DNA of 62,811 nucleotides, the filler included, from Stramenopiles sp. TOSAG23-3 (taxonomy: Eukaryota): assembly GCA_900128585.1 (NCBI GenBank). It is 5 parts of 5 records of this genome, joined end to end, with 100 filler letters (N's around TTAATTAATTAA, not from the genome) between each part and the next. Parts side by side here need not be neighbours in the genome. Positions count along the whole stretch, not along the records: positions 45,752 to 60,863 come from LT642536.1; 4 more parts are not named here. One strand, 5' to 3'. The first letter of the stretch is position 1. Every line of letters begins with the position of its first letter. This document shows, piece after piece, positions 46,669 through 51,965 of this stretch. The notes beneath the pieces are model-generated. The model was not told the origin of the DNA and did no database searches. It saw only the letters and a program-made list of their open reading frames with translations. The translations under genes and the position numbers were made by a program.

Positions 46669-47349
46669 TTATCGGTAATCGTCAATTTTGATAAACAATT
46701 TTTTGTCATTTGGAGTCTTCCGAACAATTTTTTTCCCGAAACGACTGAAAGGGTAAACGCAGTATTCAACTGTCCCCGTTACAACCCCCAGCGGTATCGG
46801 CCCGAAGCTGTTGGAATCTTCCGAGGGCACAGGGCTGTCCCCTTCTACCCAGCAATACCCCGCAGGTATTGGAACGAGATCCCCCGCAGGATCTTTAACC
46901 ACCGAAGAATGGACTTTCTTCTCCCCATCCCAAGAGCCTTCCTCCTCGGAATCTTTTCGGTTGGACCGGATCCAGTCCCCGCCCAACCCCACGATCCGCT
47001 TGACTATCCGTTTATTGGGGTGCAAATCGATCGTCACAACGTCCCCCCGCTCAAAATCATACGTCATACACTTACGCTTATCCACCAGAACAATGTCCCT
47101 CTCGTCCCACCGCCCACTTGGATTTAGGGTCGGTTGCATTGACACACCTTCTACCTTCACTATATTGAAAAACCTGTCCGTCACTAACAAAGTCACAGCC
47201 CCCCCCACCAAGAAAACAGCGCAGGTACTGCATGACGACACTCCAAGCAACGAAAGTAGTTACTATGGCACAGTGGTTAGACAAGCAAGCTGGTTCAAAA
47301 TATCTTACACAACGTTTCTTATCGGCCTGAAGTGTTGATTTGTTTCCAT
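46669..47349 (-). CDS. IMP2: Mitochondrial inner membrane peptidase (S26, IMP2-like); two exons 47349-47309 and 47227-46669
   Basis: VEGVSMQPTL (catalytic Ser), IVKRIVG (Lys), WVEGD...DSNSFGPI; GTAAG...CAG 81-bp intron joins in frame. Confidence 0.85.
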
Positions 47350-47440: not shown

Positions 47441-47480
47441 NNNNNNNNNNNNNNNNNNNNNNNNNNNNNNNNNNNNNNNN
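47441..47480. other. Scaffold gap (40 N)
   Basis: N run without linker. Confidence 0.95.
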
Positions 47481-47705
47481 GTAGTAGAAGACGACTAGTA
47501 CTTCAACAACCACAACTTACCTTTTGAATATTGTAATTTGTGGATAATTTAATGTCATAATGATGTAGTTAATTTAATCCTTCTTTCCTTCCCCTTCCTA
47601 GATTTCCGCGAAAAGGAAAAGACAAGAAATTATCTATAGCATCACAATTTATTCATTCATATAAATAATTCATATAAATAGTGTATATTTCCACTCTTGT
47701 GCAAC

Positions 47706-50180
47706 ATGACAAGCACTGTCGCGCGGACGGACAGTCACACGAGCTGGGAGGCGGAGAGCTCCGACGGATCGTCGTATGTTTACGAAAGTGGAAGCGATGA
47801 CTACGTGTTTGAGGACGATGAGGAGGTCGCGGACATATCCCCGCGAGGTAATGGGCTGCTGCAGCGGTTGGAGTCCTACAACATAGTGGACGAGACGAAA
47901 CTGACAAAGTTCGTTTCGGACGCCATCGAAAAGGTGGAGAGCATGTGCGGCGTGAACCGCTCGACCGCAGGGCTATTGCTGATAGTTTTCGATTGGGACT
48001 CGGACTTGATATGCGAGCGCTGGTGGGAAGGAAAGGACGATACCGAAATCCAGGCATCGAGGGATAAGGTTTGTAAGTCTGCCGGCATTCCCAGGCACGG
48101 TCCGGTGTACGAAGAGAAGGGCCCGGAGCCCAGCAGCCAGGTGTGCGTGGGGTGCTCGGCCTGCCCCAAAAGCTTGCTGAACCGAGCTGCTCAGGGCGCC
48201 AAGGGAGAGGGGCAGTCGGGAAAACGGACCCGGCCACCCGAGGAGAGTCCAAAAAAACGGCAGAAGAAGAAAATCAAGAAAAGCAAAGGGTTCAAAAAAG
48301 GAATCAAGGCCGTCTTTTCGCAACTGCGCACCGTGAAGAAGTTCTACGAAGCTTCCGTTCCCGACGAGACCGATATCTCCGTCATTGAAGTAGCAATCAA
48401 GTGCAAAGGAATGTGGACCGGAGTGGAGGCATTCTTTCGAATTGTCCTGCCCAACGTTCAAACTTTCCCGTTGGAGGCCCCGAAGAAGGTTCTTGCGGTA
48501 AACCCATCAAAAATGTTTCACCCGAACGTTGACCCAACGGACGGAACAGTCTGCCTCAGCCTGCTTTCCACGGACTGGTCGCCGCTGACAACTTTGAAAG
48601 ATGTCTGCGATGCATTGCAAACACTGTTCGTATGCCCAAATTGGGGGCATTCCTTGAACGCAGAGTGCAACACACTGCACGAAAAGGCCCACACGGGCGA
48701 ATTCTACCAAAGGTTGAGGCAGCTGGGCGCAACAGACCCTGAGGCGTGCAGTTCTTTGACTGCGAAAATAAATTCTCTGACGCTGGCAGCCTCTCCCCAA
48801 GTGAACGAAGACCGGGCAGCTGAGTCGTCCCCGGCTGCGTTGTTCGACGCTCCGTCGCTGATGAAGCTGCCTTCGACAAGCTCGACCCACGCCATGGCGT
48901 GCGGCCATTTCTTTTGCAAAAACTGCTGGTCGATGTTCATCGAGGCAAAGCTTAAGTCTAGCGTTGCGGGAGCTCACGGTTTTGTTTTCATGATGTGCCC
49001 CGCAAAAGGATGCAACACGTTGATCACAGAGGACATCGTCCGGGAGGTCTCCCCTGAGAACTTGGGGTTGTTCCACAAAGGTTTTCTCGAGACGTTTGTG
49101 CAGAAGACGGAGAGAATCAAATACTGCCCTCGCGGCTGCGGAAACTACGTCTCTTACCCATCGCAGAGGGCCATAAACCGGGAAATCAAGTGCAATTGTG
49201 GAGCCCGGTACTGCTGGGGCTGCGAGGACGATGTTCACATCCCAATCTCGTGCCAAACGAAACAGAAATGGCTGAAGGGGGAAAAAGCTCATTTTTGTGG
49301 ACAGAGCAGGGACGATATATGGATGGCAACGAACGTAAAACCTTGCCCATACTGCAAGAGAAGCATTTATAAGGACGGCGGCTGTATGCACATGACGTGT
49401 CGCAAGCACGAAGGTGGCTGCGGCAAGGAATTCTGTTGGCTTTGTCTCGAAAGCTGGAAGAGCCATGGCAGTGGCAGTGGGGGGTACTATGCCTGCACCA
49501 AATACAAGAAAGCCAAAGATTCCGGAAATGTCGGTGGTCTGAAAGGCGCCGCTGCTACAGCTGCCATGGCGGAGAATCTTGCGGAGAAAAGAAAGGCGCT
49601 CATTGATCGGTACGAATTTCACGCCCAACGCTTTACATTTTCGCAAAGTAGCAGCAAGAGCGCGCTGGGGCGGGAGGAAGCTTTCAAGGTTTGGATCCTT
49701 GAGTCAGGGTGCGAGAACGAGAAGGCTGCGCAGCAGGCTTATGCCTTGGCAGACGCAGCAAGCACCATCGCGAAGTGTCGAAACGCGCTGGCGTACGTAT
49801 ATGTGACTAAATATTACATGCCAGAGAGTGCCGTGTACAAGAATTTGTTCGAAAATACCCACCATGAGTTCGAGGGATTGGTCGACAAATTGCAATCTTT
49901 GGTCGAAGGGTTTGCATTTATGGATGGACTGGGCAAAGTGGACCAGGAGTGCGAGAACACCTTGACAACGATAAAAACTTTGGTGTCCCAGGCGGAGAAA
50001 TTCTATGATGACCTGTCCCGGCCGGAAGACTTTAAATCTAAGTATTTGGGACGTGTGGAGGACGAGGCCATTCAGGGATTGGAATTTTTCACCGACCAAG
50101 TCATTTCCCCCGTCGAGATATGGGAAGCAAAAGAAGGCAGAAAATTTGCTGGGTTTCTTCATGGGAAGATAAAGAAGTGA
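47706..50180 (+). CDS. Ariadne-family RBR E3 ubiquitin ligase with inserted UBC (E2) domain
   Basis: Acidic N-terminus, UBA-like, split RING1 (CVGC ... CGHFFCKNC...CPAKGC), UBC (FHPNVD...VCLSLL..DWSP), IBR, RING2 (CPYC...GGCMHMTC...FCWLC), Ariadne domain (RYEFHAQRF). Confidence 0.92.
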   Translation: MTSTVARTDSHTSWEAESSDGSSYVYESGSDDYVFEDDEEVADISPRGNGLLQRLESYNIVDETKLTKFVSDAIEKVESMCGVNRSTAGLLLIVFDWDSDLICERWWEGKDDTEIQASRDKVCKSAGIPRHGPVYEEKGPEPSSQVCVGCSACPKSLLNRAAQGAKGEGQSGKRTRPPEESPKKRQKKKIKKSKGFKKGIKAVFSQLRTVKKFYEASVPDETDISVIEVAIKCKGMWTGVEAFFRIVLPNVQTFPLEAPKKVLAVNPSKMFHPNVDPTDGTVCLSLLSTDWSPLTTLKDVCDALQTLFVCPNWGHSLNAECNTLHEKAHTGEFYQRLRQLGATDPEACSSLTAKINSLTLAASPQVNEDRAAESSPAALFDAPSLMKLPSTSSTHAMACGHFFCKNCWSMFIEAKLKSSVAGAHGFVFMMCPAKGCNTLITEDIVREVSPENLGLFHKGFLETFVQKTERIKYCPRGCGNYVSYPSQRAINREIKCNCGARYCWGCEDDVHIPISCQTKQKWLKGEKAHFCGQSRDDIWMATNVKPCPYCKRSIYKDGGCMHMTCRKHEGGCGKEFCWLCLESWKSHGSGSGGYYACTKYKKAKDSGNVGGLKGAAATAAMAENLAEKRKALIDRYEFHAQRFTFSQSSSKSALGREEAFKVWILESGCENEKAAQQAYALADAASTIAKCRNALAYVYVTKYYMPESAVYKNLFENTHHEFEGLVDKLQSLVEGFAFMDGLGKVDQECENTLTTIKTLVSQAEKFYDDLSRPEDFKSKYLGRVEDEAIQGLEFFTDQVISPVEIWEAKEGRKFAGFLHGKIKK

Positions 50181-50504
50181 TTTTCAACTGATGACAATAT
50201 CATTCCTATCATAATAATATACCAGGTATTATAATACTAAAATAACAGACAATTTTTTTTTCGTTTTTAATATTAATAAATACTCGGCGGCGGCGGGATG
50301 ATGATAATAATATTTTTTTAATAATAATCCGTGTCGTATGTATATATTTATTATAATAATAATTATATATATAGACGATTCAGAGAATGGTTTGGAGTTT
50401 TGGGGAGCTCACGCGACCCGTTTGAAAGAATCGCAAACGGCAGCAAGTAATACCCCGCCCCCTCCCCCCCTTAGCCTAGGTTGCCCGAGCGTAACTTAAA
50501 AAAA

Positions 50505-51965
50505 ATGTTTTGGAAAAAGGGAAGGAATGGAAAACCCGTGGTGGGGGTGGGCCTCGGGGGCCTGGGTAATTTTTCAAATGTTAGAGCCGTTCCTGTCGTT
50601 GGTCTTGTCTTACGGATTTTTTGTGGCTTGTTCTGTGTAGGGCTGGTAGGTCACATAATATTTTTGCACTTATCCGTTTCGAGTGACTTTTACGAGGATA
50701 ACAGAGAGCTGAGGCGTGGGTCCGAGTTGGCAGACGCCGTAAGCGTTCTGTACGGGGTAGTCCCCTCCTCACGAAGGGTGCACCGTTGCATAATAATGCC
50801 ACACTTGCGAATTCCAAACCCCAACAACCCTTGGTACAAGGAGCGAGACTTTGTCCAGTGCCTGAACCGAGAACGGTGCACGCGTGGAGAATCCTTGACG
50901 ATCTCTGTGTACCCAAAGGATCCAGTGGAGATCGTCTTACTGAACGGCAAGAAGCTGAAGCGGACAAAGTATTTTGAAAAGCTTCTGGTGGGCGTTCGCT
51001 CGAGCCCGTATTTTGTCAATAACCCCGAGGACGCCTGTTTGTTGGTGCCCAATTTCGACCATACCCTGGTGGACTCCGACTCCGACGCTGCTTTTAAAAT
51101 CTCCAAAGCCCTGCGAGATTTGCCGTTCTGGGACCAGGGACGGAACCATTTGCTGTTCAACAAGCACGATCACCCAACAGTCCAGTTCGACCCTGGGATG
51201 GCGATGGTCGCGAAAGTTGGGTTTGCGTGGCCCCACTACCGGCCTGGGTTCGACATTTCTCTGCCCCCACCGACTGGTTGGGAAGCCGACAACTGGCGAG
51301 AAGCAAAGTTGTGCGGCTGGGCGGGCAAGGATGGCCTGGACCGTAGGACCAAGTACTTGCTGACCTTCAAAGGCAGGCTGACCAGCGGCTTGCGCCATGC
51401 AATGATGTTCCTGCACAACGACAAGGACATAATCGTCATGCACTCCAAATGGGACATTCGTGGGAGGTACGATTACGACGATCTGATGCTCCACACAGAG
51501 TTTGCCCTCATTCCTCGAGGGAACGGTATGTACAGCTACCGCCTGGCAGAAGCAGTTGCGGCCGGGGCTATTCCAGTGGTCGTTTCGGACCACTACATTC
51601 TTCCGTTCAGTGAGTTTTTAAACTGGAAGGATTTTGCCGTGATAATCCCCGAGCACGAAACTATGGACATACCGGACATCCTACGGTCCATTACGGTGGA
51701 CCAACGGAAGATTTTGCGGTGCAACCTGTTCAAGGTTTGGCGGCACCATTTTTACAACATAAAATCCCACACGTTCACCGCGCTGGAGCTGTTGAACAGG
51801 AGGATTTACGGTTTTCGGGGCAAAAAGAAGGTAACGGCGGGGTTTCTGAGCAGGGCAGGTACGTATTCGACAGCATTTCGGGCGACAGAGGACGAAGACC
51901 TTGCGGTCGGGATGTGCTTTGAGCTGGACAATACGGACGCACGGGGCTTGTGCGAACGCGCTTGA
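50505..51965 (+). CDS. Exostosin-family glycosyltransferase (GT47), type II membrane protein
   Basis: N-terminal TM; NPEDACLLVP, LPFWDQGRNHL, FALIPRG..SYRLAEAVAAGAIPV, LPFSEFLNW. Confidence 0.92.
   Translation: MFWKKGRNGKPVVGVGLGGLGNFSNVRAVPVVGLVLRIFCGLFCVGLVGHIIFLHLSVSSDFYEDNRELRRGSELADAVSVLYGVVPSSRRVHRCIIMPHLRIPNPNNPWYKERDFVQCLNRERCTRGESLTISVYPKDPVEIVLLNGKKLKRTKYFEKLLVGVRSSPYFVNNPEDACLLVPNFDHTLVDSDSDAAFKISKALRDLPFWDQGRNHLLFNKHDHPTVQFDPGMAMVAKVGFAWPHYRPGFDISLPPPTGWEADNWREAKLCGWAGKDGLDRRTKYLLTFKGRLTSGLRHAMMFLHNDKDIIVMHSKWDIRGRYDYDDLMLHTEFALIPRGNGMYSYRLAEAVAAGAIPVVVSDHYILPFSEFLNWKDFAVIIPEHETMDIPDILRSITVDQRKILRCNLFKVWRHHFYNIKSHTFTALELLNRRIYGFRGKKKVTAGFLSRAGTYSTAFRATEDEDLAVGMCFELDNTDARGLCERA

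What the first reader, a model, noticed from the sequence alone, without database searches (positions are those of the whole stretch)
47706..50180. Ariadne RBR E3 ligase carrying a full E2 (UBC) domain inserted inside RING1
Seen: one uninterrupted ORF in Ariadne order (acidic tract, UBA-like, RING1, IBR, RING2 with catalytic Cys in GGCMHMTC, Ariadne domain). The first RING1 Zn pair (CVGC, about 48144-48155) is separated from CGHFFCKNC (48900 onward) by about 250 aa. That insert holds a basic linker and a UBC fold (about 48300-48730) with intact HPN (48519) and active-site Cys (48552). Established: RING1 is the E2~Ub docking site, and ARIH1/2 are activated by neddylated cullins. Inference: GTVCLSLL..DWSP..TLKDV..L.TLF..PN...LN looks most like NEDD8 E2s (UBE2F/UBC12). 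This could be a self-contained E2-E3 relay, or a coupled neddylation/ubiquitylation enzyme. I do not know this architecture from model organisms.
Basis: partly seen in the sequence, partly recalled or inferred. Interest (0 to 1): 0.9.

Follow-up and report, generated by a model that had tools for sequence, protein, structure and literature searches.

The report
Ariadne ubiquitin ligase with built-in E2
A marine protist gene encodes an Ariadne-type ubiquitin ligase that carries a complete, apparently active ubiquitin-conjugating (E2) domain spliced into the very loop that normally docks a separate E2, an arrangement conserved in about ten related proteins and not found described in print.

Summary
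Window 47706-50180 (+) is one uninterrupted 824-aa ORF. It reads acidic tract, UBA-like region, first RING1 Zn pair (C147/C150), a roughly 248-aa insert, the rest of RING1 (C399-H401-C404-C407...C431-C436), IBR, RING2 (catalytic C560) and an Ariadne domain. The insert holds a Pfam UQ_con domain (E 1e-16) with HPN and C283 intact.

Canonical Ariadne proteins have 4-15 residues where this protein has about 240. The same architecture recurs in 10 protein clusters (25-49% identical). HPN, the E2 cysteine and the RING1 ligands never vary, and the linkers are free to vary. The RBR parts are compatible with a single origin. AlphaFold2 folds both RING1 halves and the UBC domain confidently and leaves the two linkers disordered. 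Metatranscriptome contigs cover parts of the gene, and none shows a splice across the insert.

The most likely mechanism is inferred: E1 charges C283, and the tethered E2 passes ubiquitin in cis to C560. UBC12/UBE2M ranks first in 3 of 5 PDB searches by 1-3 bits, and two UBC12 features are missing.

Six literature searches found no description. I rate it a new variant of a known kind, with high interest.

The parts
47706..50180 (+). Whole gene: uninterrupted 824-aa ORF (stop codon included), an Ariadne-type RBR E3 with an embedded E2 domain
   Evidence: Identical or 99% identical 824-aa proteins occur on independent contigs.
47706..47870 (+). Acidic, disordered N-terminal tract (residues 1-55)
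   Evidence: The sequence shows it directly. AF2 pLDDT is below 50 for residues 1-50.
47871..48095 (+). UBA-like helical domain (residues 56-130)
   Evidence: Pfam UBA_ARI1 at 71-108, 23.2 bits, below the cut-off of 26.9. BLAST matches to the N-terminal parts of 23 of 141 canonical Ariadne proteins. AF2 helices at 63-125 with pLDDT 93-97.
48123..48173 (+). RING1 first half (residues 140-156) with Zn ligands C147 and C150 (48144-48155)
   Evidence: It aligns on the CxxC of canonical Ariadne RING1. The CxxC is present in 9 of 9 clusters that reach it. AF2 pLDDT is 91-92 for residues 141-160.
48174..48287 (+). Linker 1 (residues 157-194), whose K/R-rich tail runs into helix 1 of the UBC domain
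   Evidence: AF2 pLDDT is below 50 for residues 167-194. Mean family identity is 15%. The basic KKGxKA-like stretch is seen in the alignment.
48288..48740 (+). UBC (E2) domain (residues 195-345), with HPN at 272-274 (48519-48527) and active-site C283 (48552-48554)
   Evidence: Pfam UQ_con E 1e-16. Profile against PDB gives E2s at 69-87 bits. Foldseek E2 hits have TM 0.75-0.82. HPN and C283 are invariant in 10 of 10 clusters.
48741..48881 (+). Linker 2 (residues 346-392), low complexity
   Evidence: AF2 pLDDT is below 50 for residues 355-374. Mean family identity is 11%.
48882..49025 (+). RING1 second half (residues 393-440): C399, H401, C404, C407, C431, C436
   Evidence: It aligns to ARIH1 from residue 192.
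49077..49253 (+). IBR domain (residues 458-516)
   Evidence: Pfam IBR E 2.9e-14.
49332..49463 (+). RING2 (residues 543-586) with catalytic C560 (49383-49385) in DGGCMHMTC
   Evidence: Pfam IBR_1 and IBR_2. C560 aligns on the Cys of DGGCNHMVC in ARIH1. It is conserved in 7 of 7 clusters that reach it.
49506..50177 (+). Helical Ariadne domain (residues 601-824)
   Evidence: The alignment to ARIH1 runs to residue 526. Foldseek hits ARIH1 and ARIH2 at E about 1e-15. AF2 shows long helices at 614-823.

Best explanation
The gene encodes a single-chain E2-E3 enzyme. It is an Ariadne-family RBR ligase in which a catalytically intact UBC domain sits on two flexible linkers inside the first zinc loop of RING1, the loop that normally helps dock a free E2. 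The proposed mechanism is inferred. An E1 charges C283 of the embedded E2 with ubiquitin, or possibly another ubiquitin-like protein. The tethered E2~Ub folds back onto the reassembled RING1 and passes ubiquitin by transthiolation to C560 of RING2. RING2 then modifies the substrate. The retained UBA-like and Ariadne domains probably keep the ligase autoinhibited and dependent on a cullin-RING partner, as in ARIH1. The tether replaces diffusion-limited recruitment of an E2 with an intramolecular step, and it dedicates one E2 to one E3.
For: What is shown: UQ_con lies above the Pfam cut-off inside a split RING1. Canonical Ariadne proteins have 4-15 residues at the site of the roughly 240-aa insert. 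The same architecture occurs in 10 clusters totalling 128 member sequences, and in 8 of the 150 listed hits of a full HMMER scan. It also occurs as an uninterrupted 847-aa ORF on a separate metagenome contig.

HPN, C283, C399, H401, C404 and C407 are invariant. C147/C150 are present in 9 of 9 clusters that reach them, and C560 in 7 of 7. The UBC domain is as conserved (37%) as RING1b (32%) and more conserved than the Ariadne domain (26%), while the linkers are at 11-15%. So selection acts on the E2 active site and on both RING1 halves.

The AF2 model has mean pLDDT 82.1 and pTM 0.65. RING1a scores 91-92, the UBC domain 85-97, and the linkers 167-194 and 355-374 score below 50. Foldseek finds ARIH1/ARIH2 and E2 folds separately.

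For the RBR part, six fused members form a clade (SH-aLRT 98). Holding all seven together gives a likelihood 12.55 units better, with p-AU 0.736.

The position aligned to the Asp of UBE2M's NPEDPLN is His in 8 of 10 clusters. UBE2L3, the cysteine-only E2 of RBR ligases, has His119 at the D117 position (passage of PMC8899012). For UbcH7, simply bringing ubiquitin near the RING2 cysteine is said to suffice (passages of PMC5758712).

RNA-library contigs at 99% identity or more cover 47625-48148, 48716-49035, 48835-49495 and 49494-50161, with no joint across the insert.
Against: No thioester, charging or transfer has been observed; every step of the relay is inference. I could not see model coordinates, so the geometry of the UBC domain relative to RING1 and RING2 is untested. 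The E2 subfamily, and therefore the modifier, is unresolved. In this protein and in P0003 the residue two after the first RING1 cysteine, hydrophobic in the 8 canonical Ariadne proteins and in 7 of 9 fused clusters, is Gly, so the RING1 docking surface may be weakened. The contigs of the three RNA-labelled runs that I laid do not cover 48149-48715. That stretch is covered only by a run of unknown kind. His at the D117-equivalent position is suggestive at best, and it is missing in 2 of 10 clusters.
Confidence: 0.55

Rival explanations
1. The embedded E2 is a NEDD8 E2 related to UBC12. Either it neddylates the cullin to which the Ariadne part then binds, coupling neddylation with ubiquitylation, or it hands NEDD8 to RING2 so that the protein acts as a NEDD8 RBR ligase.
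For: UBE2M/UBC12 is the best PDB match for the family profile (86.9 bits against 84.1 for the next), for this protein (43.6 against 42.4) and for P0008 (51.7 against 48.3). The alignment runs from helix 1 to the C-terminal helices. It is established knowledge that ARIH1/2 act with neddylated cullins (abstracts of PMC7904520 and PMC6393609 in the listing).
Against: The margins are 1-3 bits. For P0003 a ubiquitin E2 (5v0r) leads by 2.5 bits. For P0005, UBE2D1 leads UBE2M by 5.1 bits. In Foldseek, Ubc12 chains score lower (TM 0.65-0.67) than other E2s (0.75-0.82). The language-model look-alikes are archaeal UQ_con clusters and UBE2L6, not UBC12, and they are a lead only. The domain is internal, so it has no free N-terminus for the UBC12-type N-terminal extension; that role is recalled knowledge. 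The Asp aligned in UBE2M is His in 8 of 10 clusters, which argues against direct transfer to a cullin lysine.
Confidence: 0.15
2. The two catalytic modules work side by side and not in series. The E2 domain transfers ubiquitin directly to lysines together with another RING, for example RBX1 of a bound cullin-RING ligase, as a chain extender. The RBR part primes substrates using a free E2.
For: Both active sites are conserved. RING1 keeps all its Zn ligands and could still dock a free E2. It is established knowledge that ARIH1 primes and other E2s extend on cullin-RING ligases.
Against: Placing the insert exactly in the E2-docking loop of RING1 is hard to explain if the two modules do not meet. 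His replaces the Asp that helps aminolysis in most E2s in 8 of 10 clusters, and the residue two after the E2 cysteine varies freely (S, S, G, D, Y, H, D, T, P, S). Both points fit an E2 that is not under selection for lysine chemistry.
Confidence: 0.12
3. The UBC domain is mainly regulatory. It acts as an intramolecular plug or pseudo-E2 that occupies RING1, or as a binding module for a partner RING or for ubiquitin, and does not relay ubiquitin.
For: Tethered domains often autoinhibit. The E2-contact residue of RING1 is Gly here and in P0003.
Against: HPN and the active-site Cys are invariant in 10 of 10 clusters at 25-49% overall identity. Pseudo-E2 folds such as UEV and RWD typically lose them; that is recalled knowledge.
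Confidence: 0.1
4. It is an artefact: an assembly or gene-model chimera, or an insert that is an intron removed from the mature mRNA.
For: The RNA-labelled contigs that I laid do not cover 48149-48715. A scaffold gap (N run) lies 226 bases upstream of the ATG.
Against: The insert is in frame and free of stops. It encodes a UBC domain under purifying selection and is present in 10 clusters from several sources (ENA, JGI, Logan, NCBI, EukProt), including an independent contig of a 49%-identical orthologue. An RNA contig bridges the 3' junction (48716-49035). No joint across the insert was seen in any of the 4 runs laid.
Confidence: 0.03

Closest known systems
ARIH1/HHARI and ARIH2 (Ariadne subfamily of RBR E3 ligases)
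   Same: The order is UBA-like, RING1, IBR, RING2 with a catalytic Cys, then Ariadne domain. phmmer gives E 5e-42 to ARIH1 and 1e-31 to ARIH2 over query 387-751. Foldseek gives E about 1e-15.
   Different: RING1 is split by about 248 residues carrying a full E2 domain, where canonical Ariadne proteins have 4-15 residues. ARIH1 recruits a free E2, UBE2L3.
The UBE2L3(UbcH7)~Ub-ARIH1 complex (PDB 5udh, 5tte)
   Same: It is the same pair of folds, an E2 and an Ariadne RBR, and presumably the same E2-to-RING2 transthiolation. His stands at the position of UBE2L3 His119 in 8 of 10 clusters.
   Different: There the two are separate polypeptides. Here they are one chain. The insert is not an orthologue of UBE2L3, which is absent from the best 60 PDB hits.
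Natural E2/E3 hybrids UBE2O and BIRC6
   Same: They are large proteins with an embedded, E1-chargeable UBC domain (passage of PMC11354881; abstract of PMC13623948).
   Different: Those proteins use the UBC domain as their only catalytic centre and have no RBR, HECT or RING ligase module in series. Here a second catalytic cysteine (RING2) follows.
Engineered single-chain E3-E2 fusions used in structural work (e.g. PDB 4r8p RING-UBE2D3, 8v0d UbcH5B-MIB1 RING3, 8uq8 RNF168-UBE2D3-H2B)
   Same: An E2 is covalently tethered to its RING to raise the effective concentration. These entries turned up as hits.
   Different: They are artificial end-to-end fusions with canonical RINGs. This one is natural, the E2 is inserted inside the RING, and the E3 is an RBR.
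RNF14/ARA54-type RBRs with an N-terminal RWD domain (recalled, not tested here)
   Same: An RBR ligase carrying a UBC-like fold.
   Different: RWD lacks the catalytic Cys and HPN, and it lies outside RING1.

Membership tests
Ariadne subfamily of RBR E3 ligases | RING1-IBR-RING2 in this order with complete Zn ligand sets | tested here: met
   All eight RING1 ligands are present (C147, C150, C399, H401, C404, C407, C431, C436).
Ariadne subfamily of RBR E3 ligases | Catalytic cysteine in RING2 | tested here: met
   C560 aligns with the Cys of DGGCNHMVC in ARIH1. It is conserved in 7 of 7 clusters that reach it.
Ariadne subfamily of RBR E3 ligases | C-terminal helical Ariadne domain | tested here: met
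   The alignment to ARIH1 runs through residue 526. Foldseek hits ARIH1/2. AF2 shows helices at 614-823.
Ariadne subfamily of RBR E3 ligases | N-terminal acidic tract and UBA-like domain | tested here: inconclusive
   UBA_ARI1 scores 23.2 bits, under its cut-off of 26.9. However, 23 of 141 canonical Ariadne proteins give N-terminal BLAST matches, and AF2 folds residues 63-125 confidently.
Ariadne subfamily of RBR E3 ligases | Compact, contiguous RING1 | tested here: not met
   It is split by about 248 residues between ligands 2 and 3. I therefore file it as a variant.
Ariadne subfamily of RBR E3 ligases | Autoinhibition by the Ariadne domain, relieved by a neddylated cullin-RBX | not testable with these tools
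   This needs biochemistry or a complex structure.
UBC / E2 conjugating enzymes (Pfam UQ_con) | UBC fold | tested here: met
   UQ_con 61.3 bits against a cut-off of 27. Foldseek TM is 0.75-0.82 to solved E2s, with rmsd about 2 A.
UBC / E2 conjugating enzymes (Pfam UQ_con) | HPN motif and active-site cysteine | tested here: met
   H272-P273-N274 and C283 are invariant in 10 of 10 clusters.
UBC / E2 conjugating enzymes (Pfam UQ_con) | Forms a thioester with ubiquitin or a ubiquitin-like protein after E1 | not testable with these tools
   This needs an in vitro charging assay.
NEDD8 E2s (UBC12/UBE2M, UBE2F) | Closer in sequence to UBC12/UBE2F than to other E2 families | tested here: inconclusive
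   UBC12/UBE2M ranks first in 3 of 5 searches that gave a ranking, by 1.2-3.4 bits. It ranks second in one and fifteenth in one. Two more searches returned nothing at the thresholds I set.
NEDD8 E2s (UBC12/UBE2M, UBE2F) | Free N-terminal extension that docks to the NEDD8 E1 and DCN1 (recalled knowledge) | tested here: not met
   The domain is internal (residues 195-345), so it has no free N-terminus; the sequence shows this directly.
NEDD8 E2s (UBC12/UBE2M, UBE2F) | Asp in the loop after the PN motif (NPEDPLN in UBE2M) | tested here: not met
   His315 aligns to that Asp. The position is His in 8 of 10 clusters, Ser in one and a gap in one.
E2/E3 hybrids (UBE2O, BIRC6) | The UBC domain is the only catalytic centre, with no separate E3 catalytic module | tested here: not met
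   A complete RBR with a catalytic Cys follows the UBC domain.

The most novel reading that the evidence does not exclude
A clade of marine protists has replaced the free-E2 step of the Ariadne/cullin pathway with a single polypeptide that holds two thioester stations, E2 C283 and RBR C560. The embedded E2 may be derived from UBC12. If so, one enzyme could both neddylate its cullin partner and then use that NEDD8 to switch on its own ubiquitin ligase. That would be a self-priming E2-E3-E3 machine and a natural single-chain system for trapping the E2-to-RBR transfer state.
Probability: 0.15. Interest if true: 0.9.

Novelty: new variant of a known kind. Interest (0 to 1): 0.72.

Why it matters
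RBR ligases are defined by a two-step relay from a separately recruited E2 to the RING2 cysteine. How RING1 positions E2~Ub for that step is still studied with engineered traps and fusions. Here nature has fused the E2 into the docking loop itself and kept both active sites under selection across about ten divergent lineages.

If the cis relay is real, it gives three things. First, a compact and genetically encoded model for the E2-to-RBR transthiolation state. Second, a case of an E3 that has freed itself from the cellular E2 pool. Third, a testable prediction about which free E2s and Ariadne paralogues those lineages have lost. It also extends the short list of natural E2-E3 hybrids (UBE2O, BIRC6) with one that keeps a true E3 catalytic module.

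Tried and rejected
1. Assembly or gene-model artefact: rejected, see the rival explanations.

2. UBE2C-like identity of the insert. The word-indexed search listed mostly UBE2C names. That search scores only candidates that share 5-residue words (990 candidates). No UBE2C reaches the best 60 of the profile-against-PDB search. I take this as a bias of the index.

3. A third homologue search with the 13-row family alignment returned only P0002. This was probably because low-complexity words filled the 8000 candidates. It added nothing.

4. Complex prediction of the UBC domain with the two RING1 halves and IBR-RING2. There was no verdict, so the docking geometry stays open.

5. Giant-virus origin of the insert. 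One giant-virus MAG locus (L001) has two free E2 genes. The better one scores 78.7 bits against the insert profile, no closer than cellular free E2s at up to 81.5 bits.

6. Independent origin of the most divergent member (P0203). The free trees place it elsewhere on a very long branch. The tree with all fused proteins held together is better by 12.55 log-likelihood units. Its UBC domain scores 97.5 bits against a profile built without it, compared with at most 81.5 for the 120 free E2s that I held.

7. Two PDB searches (P0004 and P0092 UBC parts) returned nothing at the strict thresholds I set, so they give no ranking.

8. The RNA-labelled runs that I laid give no cover for 48149-48715. This is no evidence of absence.

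9. The protein Atlas lists only plain Ariadne clusters for the whole protein. It holds only clusters of 50 or more members, so this shows nothing about novelty.

I could not ask whether the organism also has a canonical Ariadne or a free UBE2L3-like E2, and I could not name its lineage.
Full report
**Observation.** Window 47706-50180 (+) is a single open reading frame of 824 codons. It lies in a gene-dense stretch of long intronless ORFs, about 53% G+C inside the gene and 36-43% in nearby spacers. Pfam finds UQ_con at residues 212-338 (E 1e-16, 61.3 bits against a cut-off of 27), IBR at 458-516, IBR_1/IBR_2 (RING2) at 543-586, and UBA_ARI1 at 71-108 just under its cut-off. The RING models match only residues 388-413, which is the middle of those models.

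**The insertion site.** In a local alignment with eight canonical Ariadne proteins, C147-x2-C150 falls on their RING1 CxxC and C399-G-H401 on their CxH. I compared the protein by BLAST with 141 canonical hits, and 23 gave matches on both flanks. In the seven whose N-terminal match reaches the CxxC region without overlap, 4-15 residues stand where this protein has 238-255. The UBC domain therefore lies in the first zinc loop of RING1, between ligands 2 and 3.

**Is it real, and is it conserved?**
- A full HMMER scan of 1.84 billion cluster representatives gave 6312 hits. I examined the 150 listed, and 8 of them carry the UBC insert.
- With P0003 from the word-indexed search, the family comprises 10 clusters at 90% identity, holding 128 member sequences from ENA, JGI, Logan, NCBI and EukProt.
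- Members are 25-49% identical to the query.
- HPN, C283, C399, H401, C404 and C407 never vary. C147/C150 are present in 9 of 9 clusters that reach them, and the RING2 cysteine C560 in 7 of 7. Three clusters are known only as truncated models.
- Mean pairwise identity is 37% in the UBC domain, 32% in RING1b, 43% in IBR, 47% in RING2, 26% in the Ariadne domain, and 11-15% in the two linkers.
- A separate 4017-base metagenome contig carries the orthologue as an uninterrupted 847-aa ORF. The other 14 loci of that scan have no UBC part.

**RNA evidence.** I laid three RNA-labelled runs, and their contigs match at 99% or more. They cover 47625-48148, 48716-49035 (bridging the 3' junction of the insert), 48835-49495 and 49494-50161. 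A run of unknown kind tiles 47691-50261. No run shows a joint across the insert. The stretch 48149-48715 has no RNA-labelled cover in these runs, which proves nothing either way.

**Origin of the fusion.** On the RBR-Ariadne columns, six fused proteins form a clade (FastTree support 0.96; IQ-TREE SH-aLRT 98). The most divergent member, P0203, sits elsewhere on a branch of length 4. The best tree that holds all seven together is 12.55 log-likelihood units better than the free tree (p-AU 0.736). The UBC domain of P0092, from the same cluster as P0203, scores 97.5 bits against a profile built without it, compared with at most 81.5 bits for the 120 free E2s that I held. One origin is compatible with the data and is the simpler reading.

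**Structure.** AlphaFold2 was run on a 150-row alignment made of 10 other fused members, 97 canonical Ariadne proteins and 42 free E2s. It gives mean pLDDT 82.1 and pTM 0.65. Residues 141-160 (RING1a) score 91-92, the UBC domain 85-97, and the RBR and Ariadne parts mostly above 85. Residues 167-194 and 355-374 score below 50. Foldseek finds ARIH2 and ARIH1 (E about 1e-15, about 384 columns) and, separately, many E2s (TM 0.75-0.82). phmmer gives ARIH1 at E 5e-42 over query 387-751. I could not see coordinates, and the complex job was not folded, so the position of the E2 relative to RING1 and RING2 remains open. The two disordered linkers of about 28 and 20 residues are long enough, by simple geometry, for the E2 to dock on RING1 and to leave it for recharging. 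That is inference.

**Which E2?** The family profile ranks UBE2M first in the PDB (86.9 bits). A Naegleria ubiquitin E2 follows (84.1), then Ubc12 entries (81.9-76.8), plant UBC (76), UBE2D1 (about 75) and UBE2F (74.9). The single-sequence searches disagree with each other:
- This protein: yeast UBC12 first, by 1.2 bits.
- P0008: UBE2M first, by 3.4 bits.
- P0003: UBE2M second, 2.5 bits behind.
- P0005: UBE2D1 first and UBE2M fifteenth, 5.1 bits behind.

The Atlas look-alikes of the domain are archaeal UQ_con clusters and UBE2L6, and they are leads only. The NEDD8-E2 reading is therefore a weak lean, not a finding. Two UBC12 features are absent. There is no free N-terminus, because the domain is internal. 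The Asp of UBE2M's NPEDPLN is His315 here and His in 8 of 10 clusters. UBE2L3, the cysteine-only E2 that serves RBR and HECT ligases, has His119 at the D117 position (passage of PMC8899012; passages of PMC4822130). The residue two after the E2 cysteine varies freely across the family. Both points fit an E2 selected for transthiolation and not for lysine chemistry, but this is inference.

**Mechanism.** I propose, with confidence 0.55, a cis relay from E1 to C283 to C560 to the substrate. RING1 serves as the landing pad for its own tethered E2, and the UBA-like and Ariadne domains keep ARIH1-like regulation. Passages of PMC5758712 state that RING1 holds E2~Ub open. They also state that for UbcH7, proximity of ubiquitin to the RING2 cysteine is sufficient. 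A covalent tether would provide exactly that proximity. The rival readings are NEDD8 specificity (0.15), two modules working in parallel with a cullin-RING partner (0.12), a regulatory pseudo-E2 role (0.10) and an artefact (0.03).

**Novelty.** Six full-text searches and passages of PMC4327156, PMC11354881 and PMC2408969 gave no description of a UBC domain inside an RBR ligase. The supplements of these papers were not open to me. The nearest known things are:
- the two-chain UBE2L3-ARIH1 complex;
- the E2/E3 hybrids UBE2O and BIRC6, which have no separate E3 catalytic module;
- engineered RING-E2 fusions, which turned up among my PDB hits (4r8p, 8v0d, 8uq8).

I file the gene as a new variant of a known kind. 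The runs that hold the sequence are marine or seawater metagenomes and metatranscriptomes.

Noticed in passing
window 47441-47480: A run of 40 N, a scaffold gap, lies 226 bases upstream of the start codon in an A+T-rich spacer. It does not touch the ORF. An RNA contig starts at 47625, downstream of the gap.
   Followed up: partly
window 47706-51965 (protein P0159): A EukProt gene model of 1243 aa in the same 90% cluster is this 824-aa protein joined to residues 66-486 of the neighbouring GT47 glycosyltransferase gene (99.5% identity). This is an over-merged gene model, not a longer protein.
   Followed up: yes
window 48507-49466 (-): A 319-aa antisense ORF lies wholly inside the gene. It is Arg/Ala/Cys-rich and is most likely a by-product of the coding strand's composition.
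   Followed up: no
L001 3286-5423: A giant-virus MAG contig carries two tandem free E2 genes (188 and 179 aa) followed by an ankyrin-repeat RING protein (303 aa). The second E2 has the same HPNxxPxxG spacing and a DH-G-LN motif like the insert. It scores only 78.7 bits against the insert profile, no closer than cellular E2s.
   Followed up: partly
window 35734-58384: Neighbouring genes are ordinary eukaryotic ones with no ubiquitin-pathway link: an EF-hand ion channel, a C-terminal-motor kinesin, an S26 signal-peptidase-like protein (46672-47139, -), a GT47 exostosin-like glycosyltransferase (50505-51965, +), two LRR proteins and a KxDL protein.
   Followed up: partly
window 48835-49495 (run X6): One metatranscriptome contig joins 48835-49128 on the minus strand to 49167-49495 on the plus strand, an 'opposite strands' joint. 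It looks like a fold-back assembly artefact and not biology.
   Followed up: no
window 47655 and 47694-49912: The RNA contigs differ from the window by a 13-base deletion in the 5' leader (47655) and a few single-base changes. P0002 differs from the window protein at 6 residues. These look like strain-level variants of the same species.
   Followed up: no
proteins P0015, P0020, P0017, P0092/P0203: Several family members are truncated or end in odd hydrophobic or Cys/Tyr-rich tails. This suggests gene models that run into introns or contig ends, so some lineages probably have introns in this gene, unlike the window.
   Followed up: no
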